From NCBI GenBank assembly GCA_046594495.1, contig JBKJSQ010000057.1:1-30295 (forward strand): a DNA stretch of 30,295 bases. The letters are read 5' to 3'. The notes below the pieces were generated by a model. It was given only the letters and a program-made list of their open reading frames with translations. It had not been told where the DNA came from and did not search any database. A program made the translations under genes and the position numbers. The stretch is from Minisyncoccia bacterium. GTDB taxonomy: Bacteria; Patescibacteriota; Minisyncoccia; Phycocordibacterales; UBA2100. This document shows, piece by piece, positions 3,971-30,295 of the stretch (position 1 is its first letter; each line of letters begins with the position of its first letter).

Positions 3971-4423
3971 ATGAATCTTGAACGATCGATTTTGGTTGCA
4001 TTCATCGGCAACTACATTATCAATAACGTCGTCGCAGCCATCGTTGCACTCATTCCAGCGGGAGAATCCACAAGCGTTCTCACACCGCAATACATTGCGT
4101 ACGTGATTCTCGCAGCAGTCTTTGCCGCAGGGTTCGCGTGGTGGGCACTCAAAACAGTTGCTCGTTCACATGCAATGAAAGCCGGCATCATCTTCGGCGC
4201 TATTGCATTCGTTGTATCGATCGTCACTGCATTCGTGACCGGTATCACCGGCGTGCTCGCACAAACCGGTTCTATCTCGCAGATGTTCTCCATCATTCCA
4301 AACTTCGGACCATTCCTCTTGAGCTGGTCTACGCTCGTGCTGCTCGCGTACTGGGTCATCCCGTCCGCACTTGTCGGTTGGTACGTACAGCGTGGCGCAC
4401 AACCTGTGCACACAGAAATGTAA
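3971..4423 (+). CDS. Hypothetical integral membrane protein
   Basis: 150-aa ORF with about 4 TM segments, followed by a terminator. Confidence 0.75.
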   Translation: MNLERSILVAFIGNYIINNVVAAIVALIPAGESTSVLTPQYIAYVILAAVFAAGFAWWALKTVARSHAMKAGIIFGAIAFVVSIVTAFVTGITGVLAQTGSISQMFSIIPNFGPFLLSWSTLVLLAYWVIPSALVGWYVQRGAQPVHTEM

Positions 4424-4436
4424 TCACTCGTAGCAC

Positions 4437-4470
4437 AAAAAACAGCCTGACCACCGTCAGGCTGTTTTTT
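4437..4470. terminator. Bidirectional terminator
   Basis: aaaaaacagcctgac-cacc-gtcaggctgtttttt between convergent genes. Confidence 0.85.
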
Positions 4471-5938
4471 TATGTTTCGCAAGCGGGTATCGTCTCATGA
4501 GCACAATTATGATCGTGAGTATTAGTCCATACACCACAAAGAGCATCCACGGCGGAAACGCACCAACCTCAATCGAGGCATACGGTATCGCCGCGCAATA
4601 TTCTGCCACAACCACGATGTAGCGAAGTAGTAGATACGCAGGAAACGCGATGAGCGCACCCCACGTTCCAAATACAATTCCTCCAACGGCGGCGATCGCG
4701 GAGAACACCATCGCAAGCGGTACTGCAATGAGCGCGAGTAAATTTGCCGGGAGCGAAACGATGCTAAGGAGACCGTTGCTAAACAAGAGGAGCGGAAGCA
4801 CGCTCAGTTGTGTTGCGATCGTTGCTGCGGTTATTTCGCGAAGCGTTAACGTATTTGGCATGCGATGCAGTAATCGTTCAACGTATGGCGCGATCAGAAT
4901 CAGTCCAAGTGTTGCAAGCACTGAGAGCTGAAATCCGGGGTCATACACGAGCAGATACGGATTCCAAACAACCATGACAAACACAATCGCACCGAGCACG
5001 CGCAATGCAACAAATTGTCTGCCATAGAGCGAGGCGACGACTGCGCAAAACGCCATGGCTCCCGCGCGCATGGCGCTCGCCGCACCCCCCGAAATAACCG
5101 CGAAGAAAACTACTACAAGTAGTACCGAGAGCAGTTGTGGCGTGCGTTGCATACGCGTAAGCAATCCCATACATGCACCGAGCACGATTGTGATGTTGTA
5201 TCCGGAGAGAACTAAAATGTGCACAAGCGATACTTCTTGAAACACATCGGAAAGCTCACTGCCGACAGAGCGCTTGTCGCCCGCAGTAATTCCAGCAGCA
5301 AGTCCTGCATAGGGCTCGGGTAATACTGCGCGCAGCCCAGCTATGTATACGGATTTGATACCAAGCATCGCCGCTTTAATCGGATTCCCACCGTGCTCTA
5401 GCACACGCACCTGTGCATACGACAGTTCGTATGTAACCCCACGTGAGGCAAGAAAGTTTGGATAATCAAACACTCGGCCCGCTCCGCTTTCGAACGCTTT
5501 TGGTTTGTGCAGTTTTCCTTCCGAAGAAATTCGGTCTCCGTATGCAACGCTCGAGTGCGATGGAGCAATGACGAGCATCCGTGTTTCAATCGCCTCCCCA
5601 TTAAAAGTCGACACGTCGACGGTGAGCCGTATATTTCGCTCGCGCACATCTGGCTCTCCTATAACCACACCTTCAATAAAAACTTTTTGCTCAACGGATG
5701 CTTCTACTTGAGGCGGATAGTGCACCCGCGCTCCATCAAAGCGAACCATTCCAAGCACCAAAGCACAGACACCGAGCGCCGCGAATGCAAATACGCGAGC
5801 GGGACGCGAAACGACTAGCAACAAAAGGGCTACGCAAAGAAAGCCTGTGACAAGTGTCGTTGAAACAATAAACAACGATGCATAAAATATGCCGAGCAAA
5901 AAACCACCAACACATACTCCAGCAATACGCGTGAACAT
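4457..5938 (-). CDS. comEC: ComEC/Rec2 competence membrane channel (N-terminal OB-like and Competence domains, no MBL domain)
   Basis: HILVLSGYNITIV, SAMRAGAM, DPGFQLSVLAT and SLPANLL motifs of the Competence domain; multi-TM. Confidence 0.88.
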   Translation of the reverse strand: MFTRIAGVCVGGFLLGIFYASLFIVSTTLVTGFLCVALLLLVVSRPARVFAFAALGVCALVLGMVRFDGARVHYPPQVEASVEQKVFIEGVVIGEPDVRERNIRLTVDVSTFNGEAIETRMLVIAPSHSSVAYGDRISSEGKLHKPKAFESGAGRVFDYPNFLASRGVTYELSYAQVRVLEHGGNPIKAAMLGIKSVYIAGLRAVLPEPYAGLAAGITAGDKRSVGSELSDVFQEVSLVHILVLSGYNITIVLGACMGLLTRMQRTPQLLSVLLVVVFFAVISGGAASAMRAGAMAFCAVVASLYGRQFVALRVLGAIVFVMVVWNPYLLVYDPGFQLSVLATLGLILIAPYVERLLHRMPNTLTLREITAATIATQLSVLPLLLFSNGLLSIVSLPANLLALIAVPLAMVFSAIAAVGGIVFGTWGALIAFPAYLLLRYIVVVAEYCAAIPYASIEVGAFPPWMLFVVYGLILTIIIVLMRRYPLAKHKKTA

Positions 5939-27375: not shown

Positions 27376-27552
27376 CTACTCCAATTGATAATGGGAGTAG
27401 TTATAGTAGTGTCCGCCGCCATAATCAGAAGAGTCGTACGAGGCGCCGGTGGAGACAACCGACTGTTTCTTATACGCAACGCTGATGTTGAAGTCCCCGA
27501 CCATGTACAGGGCGAGCACAACTCCGACGAGGAACGAGATCACATGGGTCAT
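27376..27552 (-). CDS. Array cargo: 58-aa membrane-anchored peptide with a Tyr/Ser/Gly-rich tail
   Basis: AAGGAGG SD right after repeat R7; MTHVISFLVGVVLALYMVG...SDYGGGHYYNYSHYQLE. Confidence 0.6.
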   Translation of the reverse strand: MTHVISFLVGVVLALYMVGDFNISVAYKKQSVVSTGASYDSSDYGGGHYYNYSHYQLE

Positions 27553-27745
27553 AGGCACCTCCTTTATCAATTCGGGAACCATTCCTGAACTGAACAAAAG
27601 CCTCGATATTACGCGTCGAGGAGGCGCGTCCCTTGCGGGTGTGCTTTTTCCGGTTGCGCACAACGCGCAAACGGTAACGGTTGTCGGCAAGCGAACGCGC
27701 GGATTCGCTTCGGCGCTTCGGCGCGGGACCGGTGATCTGTTTCAT
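27470..27745 (-). CDS. Array cargo: ArfA-like basic protein; ORF reads through a terminator hairpin and repeat R7
   Basis: GAGGAGG SD after R6; SLADNRYRLRVVRNRKKHTRKGR resembles the ArfA LxDPxFRxRVxxxKK..xRK core but lacks GKGS. Confidence 0.45.
   Translation of the reverse strand: MKQITGPAPKRRSESARSLADNRYRLRVVRNRKKHTRKGRASSTRNIEAFVQFRNGSRIDKGGAYDPCDLVPRRSCARPVHGRGLQHQRCV
27567..27593 (-). repeat. Array hairpin repeat R7
   Basis: Minus strand tcagttcaggaa-tgg-ttcccgaattga. Confidence 0.8.
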
Positions 27746-27762
27746 ATAACATACCTCCTCTA

Positions 27763-27790
27763 TCAACCCGCGAACCATTTCGCGGACTGA
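27763..27790 (-). repeat. Array hairpin repeat R6
   Basis: Minus strand tcagtccgcgaa-atgg-ttcgcgggttga. Confidence 0.9.
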
Positions 27791-28218
27791 AAAGAATGGA
27801 CGATGACGCTCGTCCGGACGGATAGTAATCGGGATATCAGCCCACGCGTCAATACGCGCTGTCGACGACAAAGTCGCCGAATGAACGGCCGCTGTGGCCG
27901 CTCACATCTTCTACCGGGAGGCCCTCTATCTCCCGACAGTAGTACTTGCCGCTGCCCGGTCCGGAGGATTACTGTCCGCGCTCCAAGCTCCTTCGCTTGT
28001 CGCACGAGTGCAGCAACTTCCGGTTGCAGGCCGCGATCGCAGCAGCCGTCTTGGCAACAGTACGGCAGGCGCCGACCATTGCTGAAGCGGAGCCCGTACC
28101 GGCTCGACGAACGCTTCAGGATGTGGACGGTCTTCGCGACCACGATCGCCGTCGTGCGATCCGCAGTCAGAATGACTGCGCCGGCGGTCGAGGCGGTAGC
28201 GAAGTGAGTGTCGGTCAT
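27763..28218 (-). CDS. Array cargo: hypothetical protein with a CCQDGCC cysteine cluster; stop codon lies inside R6
   Basis: GGAGGG SD before MTDTHF; 151 aa; the C-terminal third crosses hairpin-rich sequence. Confidence 0.5.
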   Translation of the reverse strand: MTDTHFATASTAGAVILTADRTTAIVVAKTVHILKRSSSRYGLRFSNGRRLPYCCQDGCCDRGLQPEVAALVRQAKELGARTVILRTGQRQVLLSGDRGPPGRRCERPQRPFIRRLCRRQRVLTRGLISRLLSVRTSVIVHSFQSAKWFAG

Positions 28219-28262
28219 GTGGTGCCCTCCAAGAGCGATGCGCAGAATTGCGCAGAATTTTA

Positions 28263-28289
28263 TCAACCCGCGAATCATTCACGAGCTGA
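28263..28289 (-). repeat. Array hairpin repeat R5
   Basis: Minus strand tcagctcgtgaa-tga-ttcgcgggttga. Confidence 0.85.
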
Positions 28290-28323
28290 ATAAATAGGAC
28301 GAGCCGTGGCTCGTCCTGTTTGA

Positions 28324-28548
28324 TCATAAGCGGTCGAGTTCTCGCAAGGCGTCGTTGGTTTCATCTTGCCCGAAGACACGATTACTTTCTTCAACAGCCT
28401 CGCTCCACTCATCGCACTTATCATCGTATGTATAGCTCTCCGATATATACAACCAATCTTCGTAAGCCTTTTCTTGTTGTTCTTCTAAGACTGCGCGAAG
28501 AAAACTGATTGCACTATAGTTTCGCTCTACAAGGTACTTGATATCCAT
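28324..28548 (-). CDS. Array cargo: acidic 74-aa protein
   Basis: AGAGGA SD before MDIKYL; followed by a strong hairpin (28296-28317) and R5. Confidence 0.6.
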   Translation of the reverse strand: MDIKYLVERNYSAISFLRAVLEEQQEKAYEDWLYISESYTYDDKCDEWSEAVEESNRVFGQDETNDALRELDRL

Positions 28549-28620
28549 TTGTAATCCTCTGTTAGTTGCCTTCGCCACCATGATCGGATTACAAACGCGA
28601 GCAGCTCACTCCCTTTTCGA

Positions 28621-28648
28621 TCAACCCGCGAACGATTTCACGGACTGA
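28621..28648 (-). repeat. Array hairpin repeat R4
   Basis: Minus strand tcagtccgtgaa-atcg-ttcgcgggttga. Confidence 0.9.
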
Positions 28649-28698
28649 AAGGAATGGACGATGGCGCTCGTACGCACGGAGAATGCTTTCACATCCGC

Positions 28699-29289
28699 TC
28701 ACATCTCAGTGAGCAGTACTGTTGTAGGTGATATGAGTGTCGGCATCGACAACACCGGTGTCGACATACACCGCTGCTGCGAAGAGCAGTCCGCACGCCA
28801 CAGCAACACCGACGACGACACCTGCCGAAAAGAGCACAATTCTACGCATATATTTCTCCTTAAAACTCTATCAACCCGCGAACGATTTCGCGGACTGAAA
28901 AGAACGGGCGAATGGTGTTCACCCTTAGAAAGTACTTCCACGAAACCGGTGTGCCGAAACACCATGGTCTTTTTGGTAGACCCGTCCGGCTGCGACACTT
29001 CAGTGCTTTCACGTTTGGAAAACGCGTAGAGCACTTTGATGTTCGCCCGCACAAGCGCGACTTCGAGGGGCGCCATGAAATACGGTGCGCCACCGATCAT
29101 TGCAGCGCCGCAACCAGACTCCCGCGCAATGTCAGCGAGCTTAGCGGCGCGCTGAGCAAGCAGGCCGGTGCTCGGGAGCTCGTCAAACGTCAGATACATC
29201 TGGACGAGCGACTTCTTGTCGGTCTCAACCACGCCGACGGCGAGCTGATCCGCAGTCGCTTCGTGTTGAGTCAGATTCAAGATACGCAT
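28699..29289 (-). CDS. Array cargo: Csx20-like protein (about 120-aa core) with a read-through tail across R3
   Basis: ILNLTQHEATADQ...AMIGGAPYFM...LYAFSKRES..QPDGSTKKTMVFRHTGFVEV; GAGG SD after R2. Confidence 0.55.
   Translation of the reverse strand: MRILNLTQHEATADQLAVGVVETDKKSLVQMYLTFDELPSTGLLAQRAAKLADIARESGCGAAMIGGAPYFMAPLEVALVRANIKVLYAFSKRESTEVSQPDGSTKKTMVFRHTGFVEVLSKGEHHSPVLFSPRNRSRVDRVLRRNICVELCSFRQVSSSVLLWRADCSSQQRCMSTPVLSMPTLISPTTVLLTEM
28706..28849 (-). CDS. Array cargo: 47-aa single-TM peptide
   Basis: Manually translated MRRIVLFSAGVVVGVAVACGLLFAAAVYVDTGVVDADTHITYNSTAH; AAGGAGA SD right after R3. Confidence 0.6.
   Translation of the reverse strand: MRRIVLFSAGVVVGVAVACGLLFAAAVYVDTGVVDADTHITYNSTAH
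28871..28898 (-). repeat. Array hairpin repeat R3
   Basis: Minus strand tcagtccgcgaa-atcg-ttcgcgggttga. Confidence 0.9.
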
Positions 29290-29531
29290 GTGTGTATTCC
29301 TCGCTCTATCAATTCGCGAACCATTTCGCGGACTGAAGAAAGCGGGGAAGATTGGTCTTCCCCGGAATATTCGCTTGCCTCACGGCGGCGATCGGCTTTT
29401 GCACGATCGGCACGGAGGTTCTCAAGCTGGACGAAGAACTCACCCCGCGCATTGCGCTCACTGAGTACGCGCAGCGCTACGCTGTAGCCACTCTGCGCGA
29501 ACATAAGTGCGACGTGCTTGCGTGTCATCAT
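29277..29531 (-). CDS. Array cargo: hypothetical protein reading through R2
   Basis: GAGGG SD right after R1; no stop before the hairpin at 29343-29364. Confidence 0.5.
   Translation of the reverse strand: MMTRKHVALMFAQSGYSVALRVLSERNARGEFFVQLENLRADRAKADRRREASEYSGEDQSSPLSSVREMVRELIERGIHTCVS
29309..29336 (-). repeat. Array hairpin repeat R2
   Basis: Minus strand tcagtccgcgaa-atgg-ttcgcgaattga. Confidence 0.9.
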
Positions 29532-29547
29532 GTGGCATCCCTCATCT

Positions 29548-29575
29548 TCAATCCACGAACTATTTCATGGGCTGA
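29548..29575 (-). repeat. Array hairpin repeat R1
   Basis: Minus strand tcagcccatgaa-atag-ttcgtggattga. Confidence 0.85.
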
Positions 29576-29694
29576 AGAAAGGTGCGGAGTAAGGCTCCGC
29601 ACAACCTATGGTGATGTTCAGCATCTGGCCGTAATAAAACGGCAAGATTGAGAACTTCTGTTGCCAAGCGACACCACATCGCTCCGTTGCCATG

Positions 29695-29895
29695 TTAATG
29701 GAGACGGTATCCGTCGAGAGAACGCTCAAGAAACGCGAGCGCTTCGTCAGGATAACCGGACTTCTCCATGTACAAGGCGAATGCCAGGATGTCATCGTCT
29801 GACACGCTCCGACGGGGGCACTTCAGTGCAACAAACCCCCGAACGAAATCATGTGTTCCGATGACACGCCCGTCGATAGAAATAACCTGCCTCAT
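29695..29895 (-). CDS. First gene of the array region, hypothetical 66-aa protein
   Basis: GGAGGGG SD before MRQVISIDG. Confidence 0.55.
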   Translation of the reverse strand: MRQVISIDGRVIGTHDFVRGFVALKCPRRSVSDDDILAFALYMEKSGYPDEALAFLERSLDGYRLH

Positions 29896-29919
29896 GTAGT
29901 CCCCCTCCGTGAAGTTGAT

Positions 29920-30295
29920 GAAAGAACGCGAGTGCACTCATGTACACACGAAACGAAATCGCGAGAGCTGTTTGACTGATGATGCGGTCTAGAACCCGTA
30001 CCCACCTTTCAAACTTCGGGGCTGGACATCCCCATGGCGCTCTCTTCCACACTCACACCGTATCTCGCGCCGAGACACAATATGAGATTACGAAGAACGG
30101 CGTGCGCGGTAAGCATTTCGCTGACCGCCCTACCGTCCTTTTTTCTGCATCCACAGCCTTTCGGACCTGTGGAAACGAAAAGGTAGTCGTTGGCTACCCC
30201 TGACCCGGCAACGGCATGCGCCGCCCCGAGTAACCTCTTTGGAATCCGAAGATTCCTTCGCTAGCGGTAATCGCCCCAGAGTTAACCACCAAAAG
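29920..30295 (-). ncRNA. Highly structured non-coding region or long leader RNA, continuing beyond the window
   Basis: Several stems with UUCG/GAAA loops and G-U pairs that form only on the minus strand; no convincing ORF. Confidence 0.5.

What the first reader, a model, noticed from the sequence alone, without database searches (positions are those of the whole stretch)
27470..27745. ArfA-like ribosome-rescue factor with an internal terminator right after its conserved core
Seen: MKQITGPAPKRRSESARSLADNRYRLRVVRNRKKHTRKGR is followed in frame by CCTCGA-cgcgtaata-TCGAGG-CTTTTGTT. Established: arfA and brfA are expressed from non-stop mRNAs made by RNase III cleavage or internal termination, so the protein accumulates only when trans-translation is limiting. 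Inference: the same logic here, inside an array that itself appears to generate non-stop messages. Caveat: the ArfA KGKGS motif is absent.
Basis: partly seen in the sequence, partly recalled or inferred. Interest (0 to 1): 0.68.

Follow-up and report, generated by a model that had tools for sequence, protein, structure and literature searches.

The report
ArfA-like rescue peptide gene with in-frame hairpin
A tiny, very basic gene in a small-genome (CPR) soil bacterium is a distant relative of ArfA, the E. coli peptide that frees ribosomes stuck on broken messages, and like arfA it runs without a stop codon into a conserved RNA hairpin, so this self-limiting rescue design may reach well beyond the proteobacteria.

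Summary
ORF 27745..27470 (minus strand) has a 40-residue core, then in frame CCTCGA-N9-TCGAGG (27621-27601) and CTTTTGTT, with no stop for 51 more codons.

The gene is real. Orthologues in related metagenomes give core dN/dS of 0.07-0.23, and protein-level constraint ends at the hairpin.

The window protein itself hits neither Pfam ArfA nor DUF7230. Its family does:
- hhalign against enterobacterial ArfA gives 91% probability.
- A search of PDB sequences returns ArfA as the top six hits.
- 0 of 5000 shuffled ArfA sequences reach the real score.
- One relative passes Pfam's ArfA cut-off.
- ArfA's KGKGS turn is shortened by three residues.

Family members outside the array, several on viral contigs, carry unrelated strong hairpins plus U tracts at the same place inside the ORF. 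That supports arfA-type non-stop control as a family trait.

Caveats:
- This copy's hairpin is weak (about -7 kcal/mol).
- The same hairpin type follows other genes in related arrays.
- Close orthologues stop at a TGA in the next repeat.
- Termination and rescue activity are untested.
- The gene is a rare accessory: 3 of 37 genomes in the genus, 0 of 400 others in the phylum.

The scan has noted similar ArfA-like/DUF7230 genes on other DNA before.

The parts
27763..27791 (-). Upstream array repeat (H2 hairpin, TTCAG-N5-GAA-loop-TTC-N5-TTGA) in front of the gene
27754..27760 (-). Shine-Dalgarno GAGGAGG, 8 nt before the ATG
   Evidence: sequence
27626..27745 (-). Conserved coding core, codons 1-40 (MKQ...RKGR). 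ArfA-like motif LADxRYRxRVVRxRKK-(3-residue deletion)-HTRKGR, under purifying selection.
   Evidence: (dN/dS 0.07-0.23)
27470..27745 (-). Whole open frame as it reads in this window (91 codons plus TAA). Codons 41-91 run through the hairpin and the repeat, then out of frame over the next gene.
   Evidence: tail not constrained as protein
27601..27621 (-). In-frame hairpin H1, CCTCGA-cgcgtaata-TCGAGG
27593..27600 (-). U-rich tract CTTTTGTT after the hairpin. It overlaps the first two bases (27594-27593) of the next repeat.
27567..27594 (-). Downstream array repeat (H2 hairpin). In close orthologues the TGA of its TTGATAG ends the 58-residue ORF. Here the frame is 2 nt off, so that TGA is missed.
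27558..27562 (-). Shine-Dalgarno GGAGG of the next cassette gene (start 27552). It can pair with GCGCCUCC just upstream of H1.
   Evidence: -27.8 kcal/mol, z -2.3

Best explanation
The ORF is a real gene for a small basic peptide of about 40-52 residues. It belongs to a widespread, uncharacterised family that overlaps Pfam DUF7230 and is distantly homologous to the alternative ribosome-rescue factor ArfA.

By analogy with ArfA, the basic RKK..TRKGR end would lie in the empty mRNA channel of a ribosome stalled at the 3' end of a truncated message. The LADxRYRxRV segment would recruit release factor 2 to release the chain. This function is inferred, not shown.

The hairpin plus U tract that begins one codon after the core would end, or allow cutting of, part of the transcripts. 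The peptide would then be made from a stop-less message. With trans-translation active it would be tagged and degraded; when tmRNA is saturated it would accumulate. This regulation is also inferred.

Shown here: the gene is under purifying selection; family-level homology to ArfA; the conserved hairpin at the end of the core; no stop before it; equivalent but unrelated in-ORF hairpins in relatives outside the array.

In this organism the gene is a rare accessory cassette, probably acquired horizontally, perhaps from phage. It is not a core rescue factor.
For: Gene is real:
- Four 58-69-residue orthologues at 71-83% identity.
- Core dN/dS of 0.07-0.23, while the tail (codons 41-52) is relaxed.

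Family:
- 79 cluster representatives at E <= 1e-3 among 1.84 billion proteins.
- 47 of 82 members match DUF7230 and 12 of 82 match ArfA.
- P0076 scores 29.9 bits against ArfA, above the 25.5-bit cut-off.

Homology to ArfA:
- PDB hmmsearch gives E 1.7e-7 with the whole family and 0.0016 with array-type members only; the top six hits are all ArfA.
- hhalign gives 73.6% against E. coli ArfA and 91.2% against an ArfA alignment.
- 0 of 5000 shuffles reach 19.1 bits.
- The shared D-(P)-x-[FY]-R-x-R-V and Y-x-R-K-G-[KR] motifs include the equivalent of ArfA Phe25, which contacts RF2 Trp319 (PMC5378476).

Hairpin:
- It is invariant in all orthologues.
- Non-array relatives L029, L037, L043, L069 and L072 have unrelated strong hairpins plus U tracts starting in the KGR codons inside the ORF. 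In L072 the stop comes only after the U tract.

Partner machinery in this genome: RF2 with SPF and the switch-loop Trp, RF1, RNase III and SmpB are present, and no ArfB was found. tmRNA is present in 10 of 15 genomes of the genus.

The published arfA/brfA logic is confirmed in PMC8012679 and PMC11633108.
Against: - The window protein alone gives no hit to ArfA or DUF7230. Its narrow subfamily profile is only marginal against ArfA (15 of 5000 shuffles).
- KGKGS is missing.
- H1 here is weak: 6 bp, 9-nt loop, z +0.7. In orthologues the tract after it is U-poor (GTTCCATTCA).
- The same CCTCGA..TCGAGG hairpin follows at least three other ORFs, so it is an array module rather than a private feature of this gene.
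- Close orthologues have an in-frame TGA 18 codons after the core, so a complete 58-residue product is possible.
- No promoter is seen inside the array. Efficient termination at H1 would therefore silence the downstream cassette.
- The gene is found in 3 of 37 genus genomes and 0 of 400 others in the phylum.
- ssrA is not found in this assembly.
- No RNA data were listed.
Confidence: 0.5

Rival explanations
1. Generic array punctuation. The hairpin (H1) and the following repeat (H2) are inter-cassette elements shared across this gene array. They could act as partial attenuators, mRNA-stabilising or processing hairpins, translational-coupling structures, or recombination sites that shuffle cassettes. 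Under this reading the ORF merely overlaps them. Ribosomes read through to the next stop, and the ArfA-related peptide is made constitutively with a meaningless tail.
For: - The identical H1 type follows other ORFs, in other frames.
- Every cassette has an H1-like stem plus H2.
- Cassette order differs between genomes.
- Close orthologues stop at the repeat's TGA.
- The anti-SD-like flank of H1 pairs with the next SD, -27.8 kcal/mol, z -2.3. Translation through H1 could unmask the next start.
- H1 is weak as a terminator.
Against: - Family members outside any array carry unrelated hairpins plus U tracts at the same position inside the ORF.
- Tails after the core follow no constant frame or length: 15 have 6 residues or fewer, 28 have 7-20, and 35 have more than 20. 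They show no protein-level constraint.
- In this window the read-through would run 51 codons, out of frame over the next gene.
Confidence: 0.3
2. A mobile-element or phage-derived ribosome-binding peptide with a different role. It would keep the ArfA-like channel-binding part but serve the element rather than act as the cell's back-up rescue. Examples would be coping with mRNA cleavage during infection or defence, or releasing products of the array's own stop-less cassettes.
For: - The family is common in viral contigs and phage families: phrog_20887 matches 51 of 82 members and phrog_2701 matches 19 of 82.
- 12 IMG/VR loci carry it.
- One member lies in a T4-like context next to gp32/gp59.
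- The nearest protein-atlas clusters are viral.
- The gene is rare and patchy in this phylum.
- It sits in a shuffled accessory array in which other ORFs also lack stops before their hairpins, in two genomes.
Against: There is no direct evidence for any alternative activity. The conserved residues are those ArfA uses for RF2 and the ribosome.
Confidence: 0.15
3. Not a functional gene. The frame would be open by chance in repeat-rich DNA, and the ArfA resemblance would reflect basic composition only.
For: The window protein has no direct Pfam or NCBIfam hit.
Against: - Purifying selection on the core.
- A conserved start codon and Shine-Dalgarno site.
- 79 family representatives.
- The shuffle control.
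Confidence: 0.03

Closest known systems
ArfA (YhdL), alternative ribosome-rescue factor A of E. coli and other beta/gamma-proteobacteria (Pfam PF03889; PDB 5H5U, 5MDV, 5U4I, 5MGP, 7OJ0)
   Same: - A small basic peptide.
- Shared motif L-x-D-(P)-x-[FY]-R-x-R-V ... K-K ... Y-x-R-K-G-[KR].
- A hairpin inside the reading frame just after the functional core, with no stop codon before it.
- A non-conserved tail beyond the hairpin.
   Different: - Three residues shorter at the KGKGS turn.
- Below Pfam's threshold.
- The hairpin starts 1-2 codons after the core, against about 8 in E. coli, and is much weaker.
- It lies in a CPR bacterium and on phages, whereas ArfA is described as restricted to beta/gamma-proteobacteria (PMC8012679).
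- It sits in a repeat-punctuated accessory array, and the hairpin type is shared with neighbouring cassettes.
Pfam DUF7230 (PF23876) / phrog_20887, small proteins of unknown function
   Same: 47 of 82 family members, and 18 of 27 array-type members, match this model. Length and core motif are the same.
   Different: The window protein itself gives no hit even at E <= 10. No function is recorded and no paper mentions the family.
BrfA of Bacillus subtilis (PMC6881298)
   Same: The regulatory logic is the same: an RF2-dependent rescue peptide made from a stop-less mRNA and repressed by trans-translation.
   Different: No sequence similarity was detected. NCBIfam and Pfam scans gave nothing.

Membership tests
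ArfA (PF03889) | Match to the Pfam model above its gathering score (25.5 bits) | tested here: not met
   No hit for the window protein at E <= 1 or in a six-frame scan at E <= 10. A retrieved relative, P0076, scores 29.9 bits.
ArfA (PF03889) | Profile-level homology to experimentally characterised ArfA | tested here: met
   - hhalign of the array-type core alignment A6 against ArfA alignment A8: 91.2%, E 1e-6.
- PDB hmmsearch with A4: ArfA at E 0.0016, top six hits all ArfA.
- 0 of 5000 shuffles reach the real score.
- With only the five closest sequences the result is marginal.
ArfA (PF03889) | KGKGS motif between the RF2-binding part and the channel-binding tail | tested here: not met
   All alignments place a 3-residue gap here: RKK---HTRKGR against KKGKGSYMRKGK.
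ArfA (PF03889) | Hydrophobic patch and Pro23 used to hold RF2 and the decoding centre (Leu19, Pro23, Leu24, Phe25; PMC5378476) | tested here: inconclusive
   Equivalents of Leu (L19), Asp (D21) and Phe25 (Y24) are conserved. Pro is present in many relatives but is Asn in the window protein, and the Leu24 position is Arg.
ArfA (PF03889) | Positively charged C-terminal segment (Y-x-R-K-G-K) | tested here: met
   HTRKGR in the window. Y35, R37, K38 and G39 are nearly invariant in the family.
ArfA (PF03889) | Stem-loop inside the ORF that yields a stop-less mRNA by termination or RNase III cleavage | tested here: inconclusive
   A stem-loop plus U tract is present and conserved, with no stop before it. 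It is weak. No transcript data are available.
ArfA (PF03889) | RF2-dependent peptide release on non-stop ribosomes; synthetic lethality with ssrA | not testable with these tools
   Only the partners could be checked. RF2 (SPF, switch-loop Trp) is on C149 and SmpB on C161. tmRNA is present in the genus.
DUF7230 (PF23876) | Match to the Pfam model above its gathering score (27 bits) | tested here: not met
   The six-frame scan of the window's genome gives no match at this gene at E <= 10. 47 of 82 relatives match, best E 2e-10.
Integron gene cassette (attC site) | Conserved R''/R' boxes (RYYYAAC ... GTTRRRY) flanking a variable centre, with a nearby intI | tested here: not met
   Read from the sequence. 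The conserved part is one 28-nt hairpin on the 3' side of a variable hairpin, GTTGATA does not fit GTTRRRY, and G-U pairs point to RNA of the sense strand. No dedicated search for an integrase was run; a tyrosine recombinase seen 3 kb away in L036 is not linked to the array.

The most novel reading that the evidence does not exclude
The array would be a module gated by trans-translation. Several cassettes run without a stop into their own hairpins in two diverged genomes: the ArfA-like gene, the Csx20-like gene and the 84-residue gene. Their products would then come from stop-less messages. The co-resident ArfA-like peptide would recruit RF2 to release those products untagged. The whole accessory array would be expressed productively only when tmRNA is overloaded or disabled, for example under phage attack or RNase-toxin stress.
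Probability: 0.1. Interest if true: 0.85.

Novelty: new variant of a known kind. Interest (0 to 1): 0.58.

Why it matters
Published surveys place ArfA only in beta- and gamma-proteobacteria and treat BrfA and ArfT as separate inventions (PMC8012679). A distant ArfA-like family that keeps the in-frame hairpin design and occurs in a CPR bacterium, in other bacteria and on phages would change that picture. It would show that RF2-recruiting rescue peptides with self-limiting non-stop expression are older or more mobile than thought. It would also give small, easily synthesised candidates for direct biochemical tests. The link to mobile arrays and phages raises the possibility that rescue of stalled ribosomes plays a part in phage-host conflict.

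Tried and rejected
- Direct family scans of the window protein (Pfam, NCBIfam, PHROGs) gave no hits.
- tblastn of the window protein and of P0036 against deposited phage genomes gave no match, probably because of low-complexity filtering.
- Rfam gave nothing credible on the array or on related loci.
- The weak PF03889 hit on contig C110 has no open frame and is spurious.
- ARAGORN's 'permuted tmRNA' on C10 has an unidentified tag and is taken as false. The Rfam tmRNA hits in this genome are tRNA-sized.
- For RNA evidence, only soil DNA runs hold the locus and no RNA run was listed.
- The covariation test on H1 was uninformative. Five of seven pairs never vary, there is one compensatory change, and shuffles often do as well.
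- The integron/attC reading of the repeats was rejected on anatomy.
- The H2 pattern in IMG/VR gave only seven singleton matches, about the number I estimated for chance, so no arrays were seen on viral contigs.
- AlphaFold was not run. ArfA is unstructured off the ribosome and the tool folds single chains only.

Full report
**What is there.** The window is one whole 30,295-bp contig (C71) of a 1.14-Mb, 164-contig genome that is 95.6% complete. A related locus is titled Candidatus Paceibacterota. On the minus strand between 29586 and 27558 lie seven copies of a roughly 28-nt hairpin repeat, H2: TTCAG-N5-GAA-loop-TTC-N5-TTGA, usually followed by TAGAG and a Shine-Dalgarno site. They occur nowhere else in the genome. 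Each is preceded by a sequence-variable G+C-rich stem and a T-rich tract (H1). Five of the seven H1 stems are called terminator-like by the consensus scan, which found 11 sites against 4.2 expected.

The target ORF (27745..27470) starts 8 nt after a GAGGAGG site. It encodes MKQITGPAPKRRSESARSLADNRYRLRVVRNRKKHTRKGR. One codon later it runs in frame through CCTCGA-cgcgtaata-TCGAGG (27621-27601), CTTTTGTT, the next H2 repeat and the start of the next gene. It stops only at 27470.

**The gene is real.** A word-indexed search found four orthologues of 58-69 residues at 71-83% identity. All lie in the same kind of repeat-punctuated array of small genes in soil and groundwater metagenomes. Pairwise Nei-Gojobori estimates give dN/dS of 0.07-0.23 for codons 1-40. 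For codons 41-52, dN rises and dS falls. Protein-level constraint therefore ends at Arg40, and nucleotide-level constraint takes over at the hairpin.

In the four close orthologues the frame ends at the TGA of the repeat's TTGATAG. The window copy is 2 nt out of register and misses that stop.

**Is it ArfA-like?** The window protein alone matches no Pfam or NCBIfam model. Six-frame scans of the genome with PF03889 and PF23876 do not touch it. The family gives a different answer.

An exhaustive HMMER search with the five-sequence profile found 79 cluster representatives at E <= 1e-3. They share PKxRSxAAxxLADxRYRxRVVRxKKxYxRKGR. Scanned one by one, 47 of 82 match DUF7230 and 12 match ArfA. One of them, P0076, has a KGRGSY insertion and scores 29.9 bits, above ArfA's 25.5-bit gathering score.

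- A profile of the whole family finds E. coli ArfA in the PDB at E 1.7e-7.
- To avoid circularity I repeated the search with only the 27 array-type members. ArfA is still the best hit (E 0.0016) and fills the top six places.
- hhalign of the array-type core gives 73.6% against the single E. coli sequence and 91.2% (E 1e-6) against nine enterobacterial ArfAs.
I tested it directly. The array-type HMM scores real ArfA(1-55) at 19.1 bits, and none of 5000 shuffles exceeds 15. With only the five closest sequences the signal is marginal: 6.4 bits, reached by 15 of 5000 shuffles.

The alignment pairs L-x-D-(P)-x-[FY]-R-x-R-V and Y-x-R-K-G-[KR] with ArfA residues 20-29 and 39-44. It places a three-residue gap at ArfA's GKG. 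The conserved aromatic residue corresponds to Phe25, part of the patch that binds Trp319 of RF2 (PMC5378476). This organism's RF2 keeps SPF and the switch-loop Trp.

I conclude that the gene belongs to a remote ArfA-like family bridging DUF7230 and ArfA. It is not a member of PF03889 as that family is defined.

**The hairpin.** Folded alone, H1 is weak: -6.8 to -8.1 kcal/mol, z +0.7. Its loop of 9 nt is outside the range the terminator scan accepts. Its stem is invariant in 14 distinct copies. There is one compensatory A-U to U-A change and a variable loop, which the covariation statistics cannot distinguish from chance.

The same CCTCGA-YGCG-N5-TCGAGG stem also follows at least three unrelated ORFs in related arrays, in other frames and again with no stop before it. 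H1 of this type is therefore an array module, not a private feature of the ArfA-like gene.

The sequence just upstream of H1 (GCGCCUCC) can pair with the next gene's Shine-Dalgarno region, enclosing H1 and H2 (-27.8 kcal/mol, z -2.3). This would also fit a translational-coupling role.

**A hairpin at this position looks like a family trait.** Family members outside any array carry unrelated, strong hairpins with U tracts that start in or right after the K-G-R codons and lie inside the ORF:
- L029: GGGGCGCC/GGCGTCCC, -24 kcal/mol, z -4.5.
- L037: GGGGTCCC/GGGACCCC, z -4.1.
- L043: AAGGGGCGG/CCGCCCCTT followed by TCATTGTTT, z -3.4.
- Two IMG/VR contigs, L069 and L072. In L072 the TGA comes only after the U tract of a canonical terminator.

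Members from A+T-rich sources instead have plain stops 2-5 codons after the core. Across the 78 of 81 retrieved relatives (P0002-P0082) in which the core was found, the tail after the core is 6 residues or fewer in 15, 7-20 in 28 and more than 20 in 35, in no constant frame. This is the pattern published for arfA and brfA, where a stem-loop causes termination or RNase III cleavage and the peptide is made from a non-stop mRNA repressed by trans-translation (PMC8012679, PMC11633108). In E. coli arfA the stem begins about eight codons after the core.

**Cellular context.** The genome has RF1 (PAT), RF2 (SPF), RNase III and an SmpB fragment at a contig end. There is no third RF-1-domain protein, so no ArfB was found. 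A tmRNA gene is not in this fragmented assembly, but 10 of 15 other genomes of the genus have one above Rfam's threshold.

The gene is a rare accessory. Clear matches occur in 3 of 37 genomes of the genus and in none of 400 other genomes sampled across the phylum. The H2 repeat was found only in this genome (7 copies) and one other (1 copy).

The family is frequent in phages:
- phrog_20887 matches 51 of 82 members.
- 12 IMG/VR loci carry it.
- One copy lies next to gp32 and gp59 in a T4-like contig.
- The nearest protein-atlas clusters are viral.

**The array.** Cassette order differs between this window and L007 or L014. A TrmB-family regulator and a roughly 0.8-1.2-kb leader precede the array in relatives, and the window's last 170 nt match that leader.

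Of the four ORFs said to lack a stop before their hairpin, one (28218..27763) is explained by a 1-nt insertion relative to its L014 orthologue, which has a normal stop. The Csx20-like ORF and the 84-residue ORF lack a stop in both this window and L007. Running into H1 is therefore common in these arrays. That weakens the gene-specific reading, but it keeps open the bolder idea of an array whose products depend on non-stop rescue.

**Verdict.** 'ArfA-like' is supported at family level. 'Internal terminator' and 'rescue factor' remain plausible but untested.

I rate the layered explanation at about 0.5:
- Remote homology to ArfA: about 0.8.
- RF-dependent rescue activity: about 0.5.
- Non-stop control of this particular copy: about 0.35-0.4.

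Earlier notes of this scan describe similar ArfA-like/DUF7230 genes with in-frame terminators in other genomes and phages. They agree with this reading but are not independent evidence. No paper in the searched library mentions DUF7230.

Noticed in passing
window 27763-28218 (-), indel near 27945: This ORF appears to lack a stop before its hairpin only because of a 1-nt insertion (CAAGTACT against CAA-TACT) relative to its orthologue L014:2406-2774. That orthologue ends ...FVVDSAY* about 40 nt before H1. The insertion is either a real frameshift or an assembly error.
   Followed up: yes
window 28699-29289 (-) and 29277-29531 (-); L007:3829-4269 and 4451-4678: The Csx20-like ORF (NCBIfam Csx20 E 1.5e-5, 25 bits, far below its cut-off of 70) and the 84-residue ORF run into their hairpins without a stop in both genomes. 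The 84-residue gene does so even though its hairpin differs between the two: GGGGAAGA..TCTTCCCC here, CCTCGA..TCGAGG in L007.
   Followed up: partly
window 27555-27632 (-): GCGCCUCC just 5' of the hairpin can pair with the next gene's GGAGGUGC (Shine-Dalgarno region), enclosing H1 and an extended H2 (-27.8 kcal/mol, z -2.3). This is a possible translational-coupling or masking structure.
   Followed up: partly
window 30125-30295; L014:1018-1858; L007:905-2117; L036:3742-5190: In relatives the array is preceded by a TrmB-family regulator and a roughly 0.8-1.2-kb stretch without credible ORFs. The last 170 nt of the window are 75% identical to part of that leader. No Rfam family matches it.
   Followed up: partly
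window 27376-29937 compared with L007:2100-5300 and L014:1800-3850: The same small genes occur in a different order and combination in different genomes, as if cassettes were shuffled at the repeats. No H2 array was seen in 2.9 million viral contigs, only seven singleton pattern matches.
   Followed up: partly
L056 (G028:C1:1911-5030): In another species of the genus the ArfA-like gene is not in an array. It lies between a Ro60 orthologue (TROVE plus vWA_Ro60, E 2e-62) and a BRO-N domain gene. Its stop codon sits in the loop of a 13-bp hairpin.
   Followed up: partly
L072 (IMGVR_UViG_3300017650_000001, 103.6 kb), around 4090-4125: A phage copy of the family has a canonical terminator (AAGGGCCGA-cgtaaa-TCGGCCCTT-TCTTTTT) that begins in its K-G-R codons. 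The TGA comes only after the U tract. This is the clearest non-stop design seen here.
   Followed up: partly
genome contigs C161, C10, C6: SmpB is present only as a fragment at the end of a 1.7-kb contig. No convincing tmRNA gene is in the assembly, although most genomes of the genus have one. It was probably lost in an assembly gap.
   Followed up: partly
P0082 (151 aa, from the representative library): In one metagenomic relative, a homologue of the window's 66-residue ORF (29895..29695) is read through into the ArfA-like gene as one frame. This indicates that the two cassettes are adjacent there.
   Followed up: no
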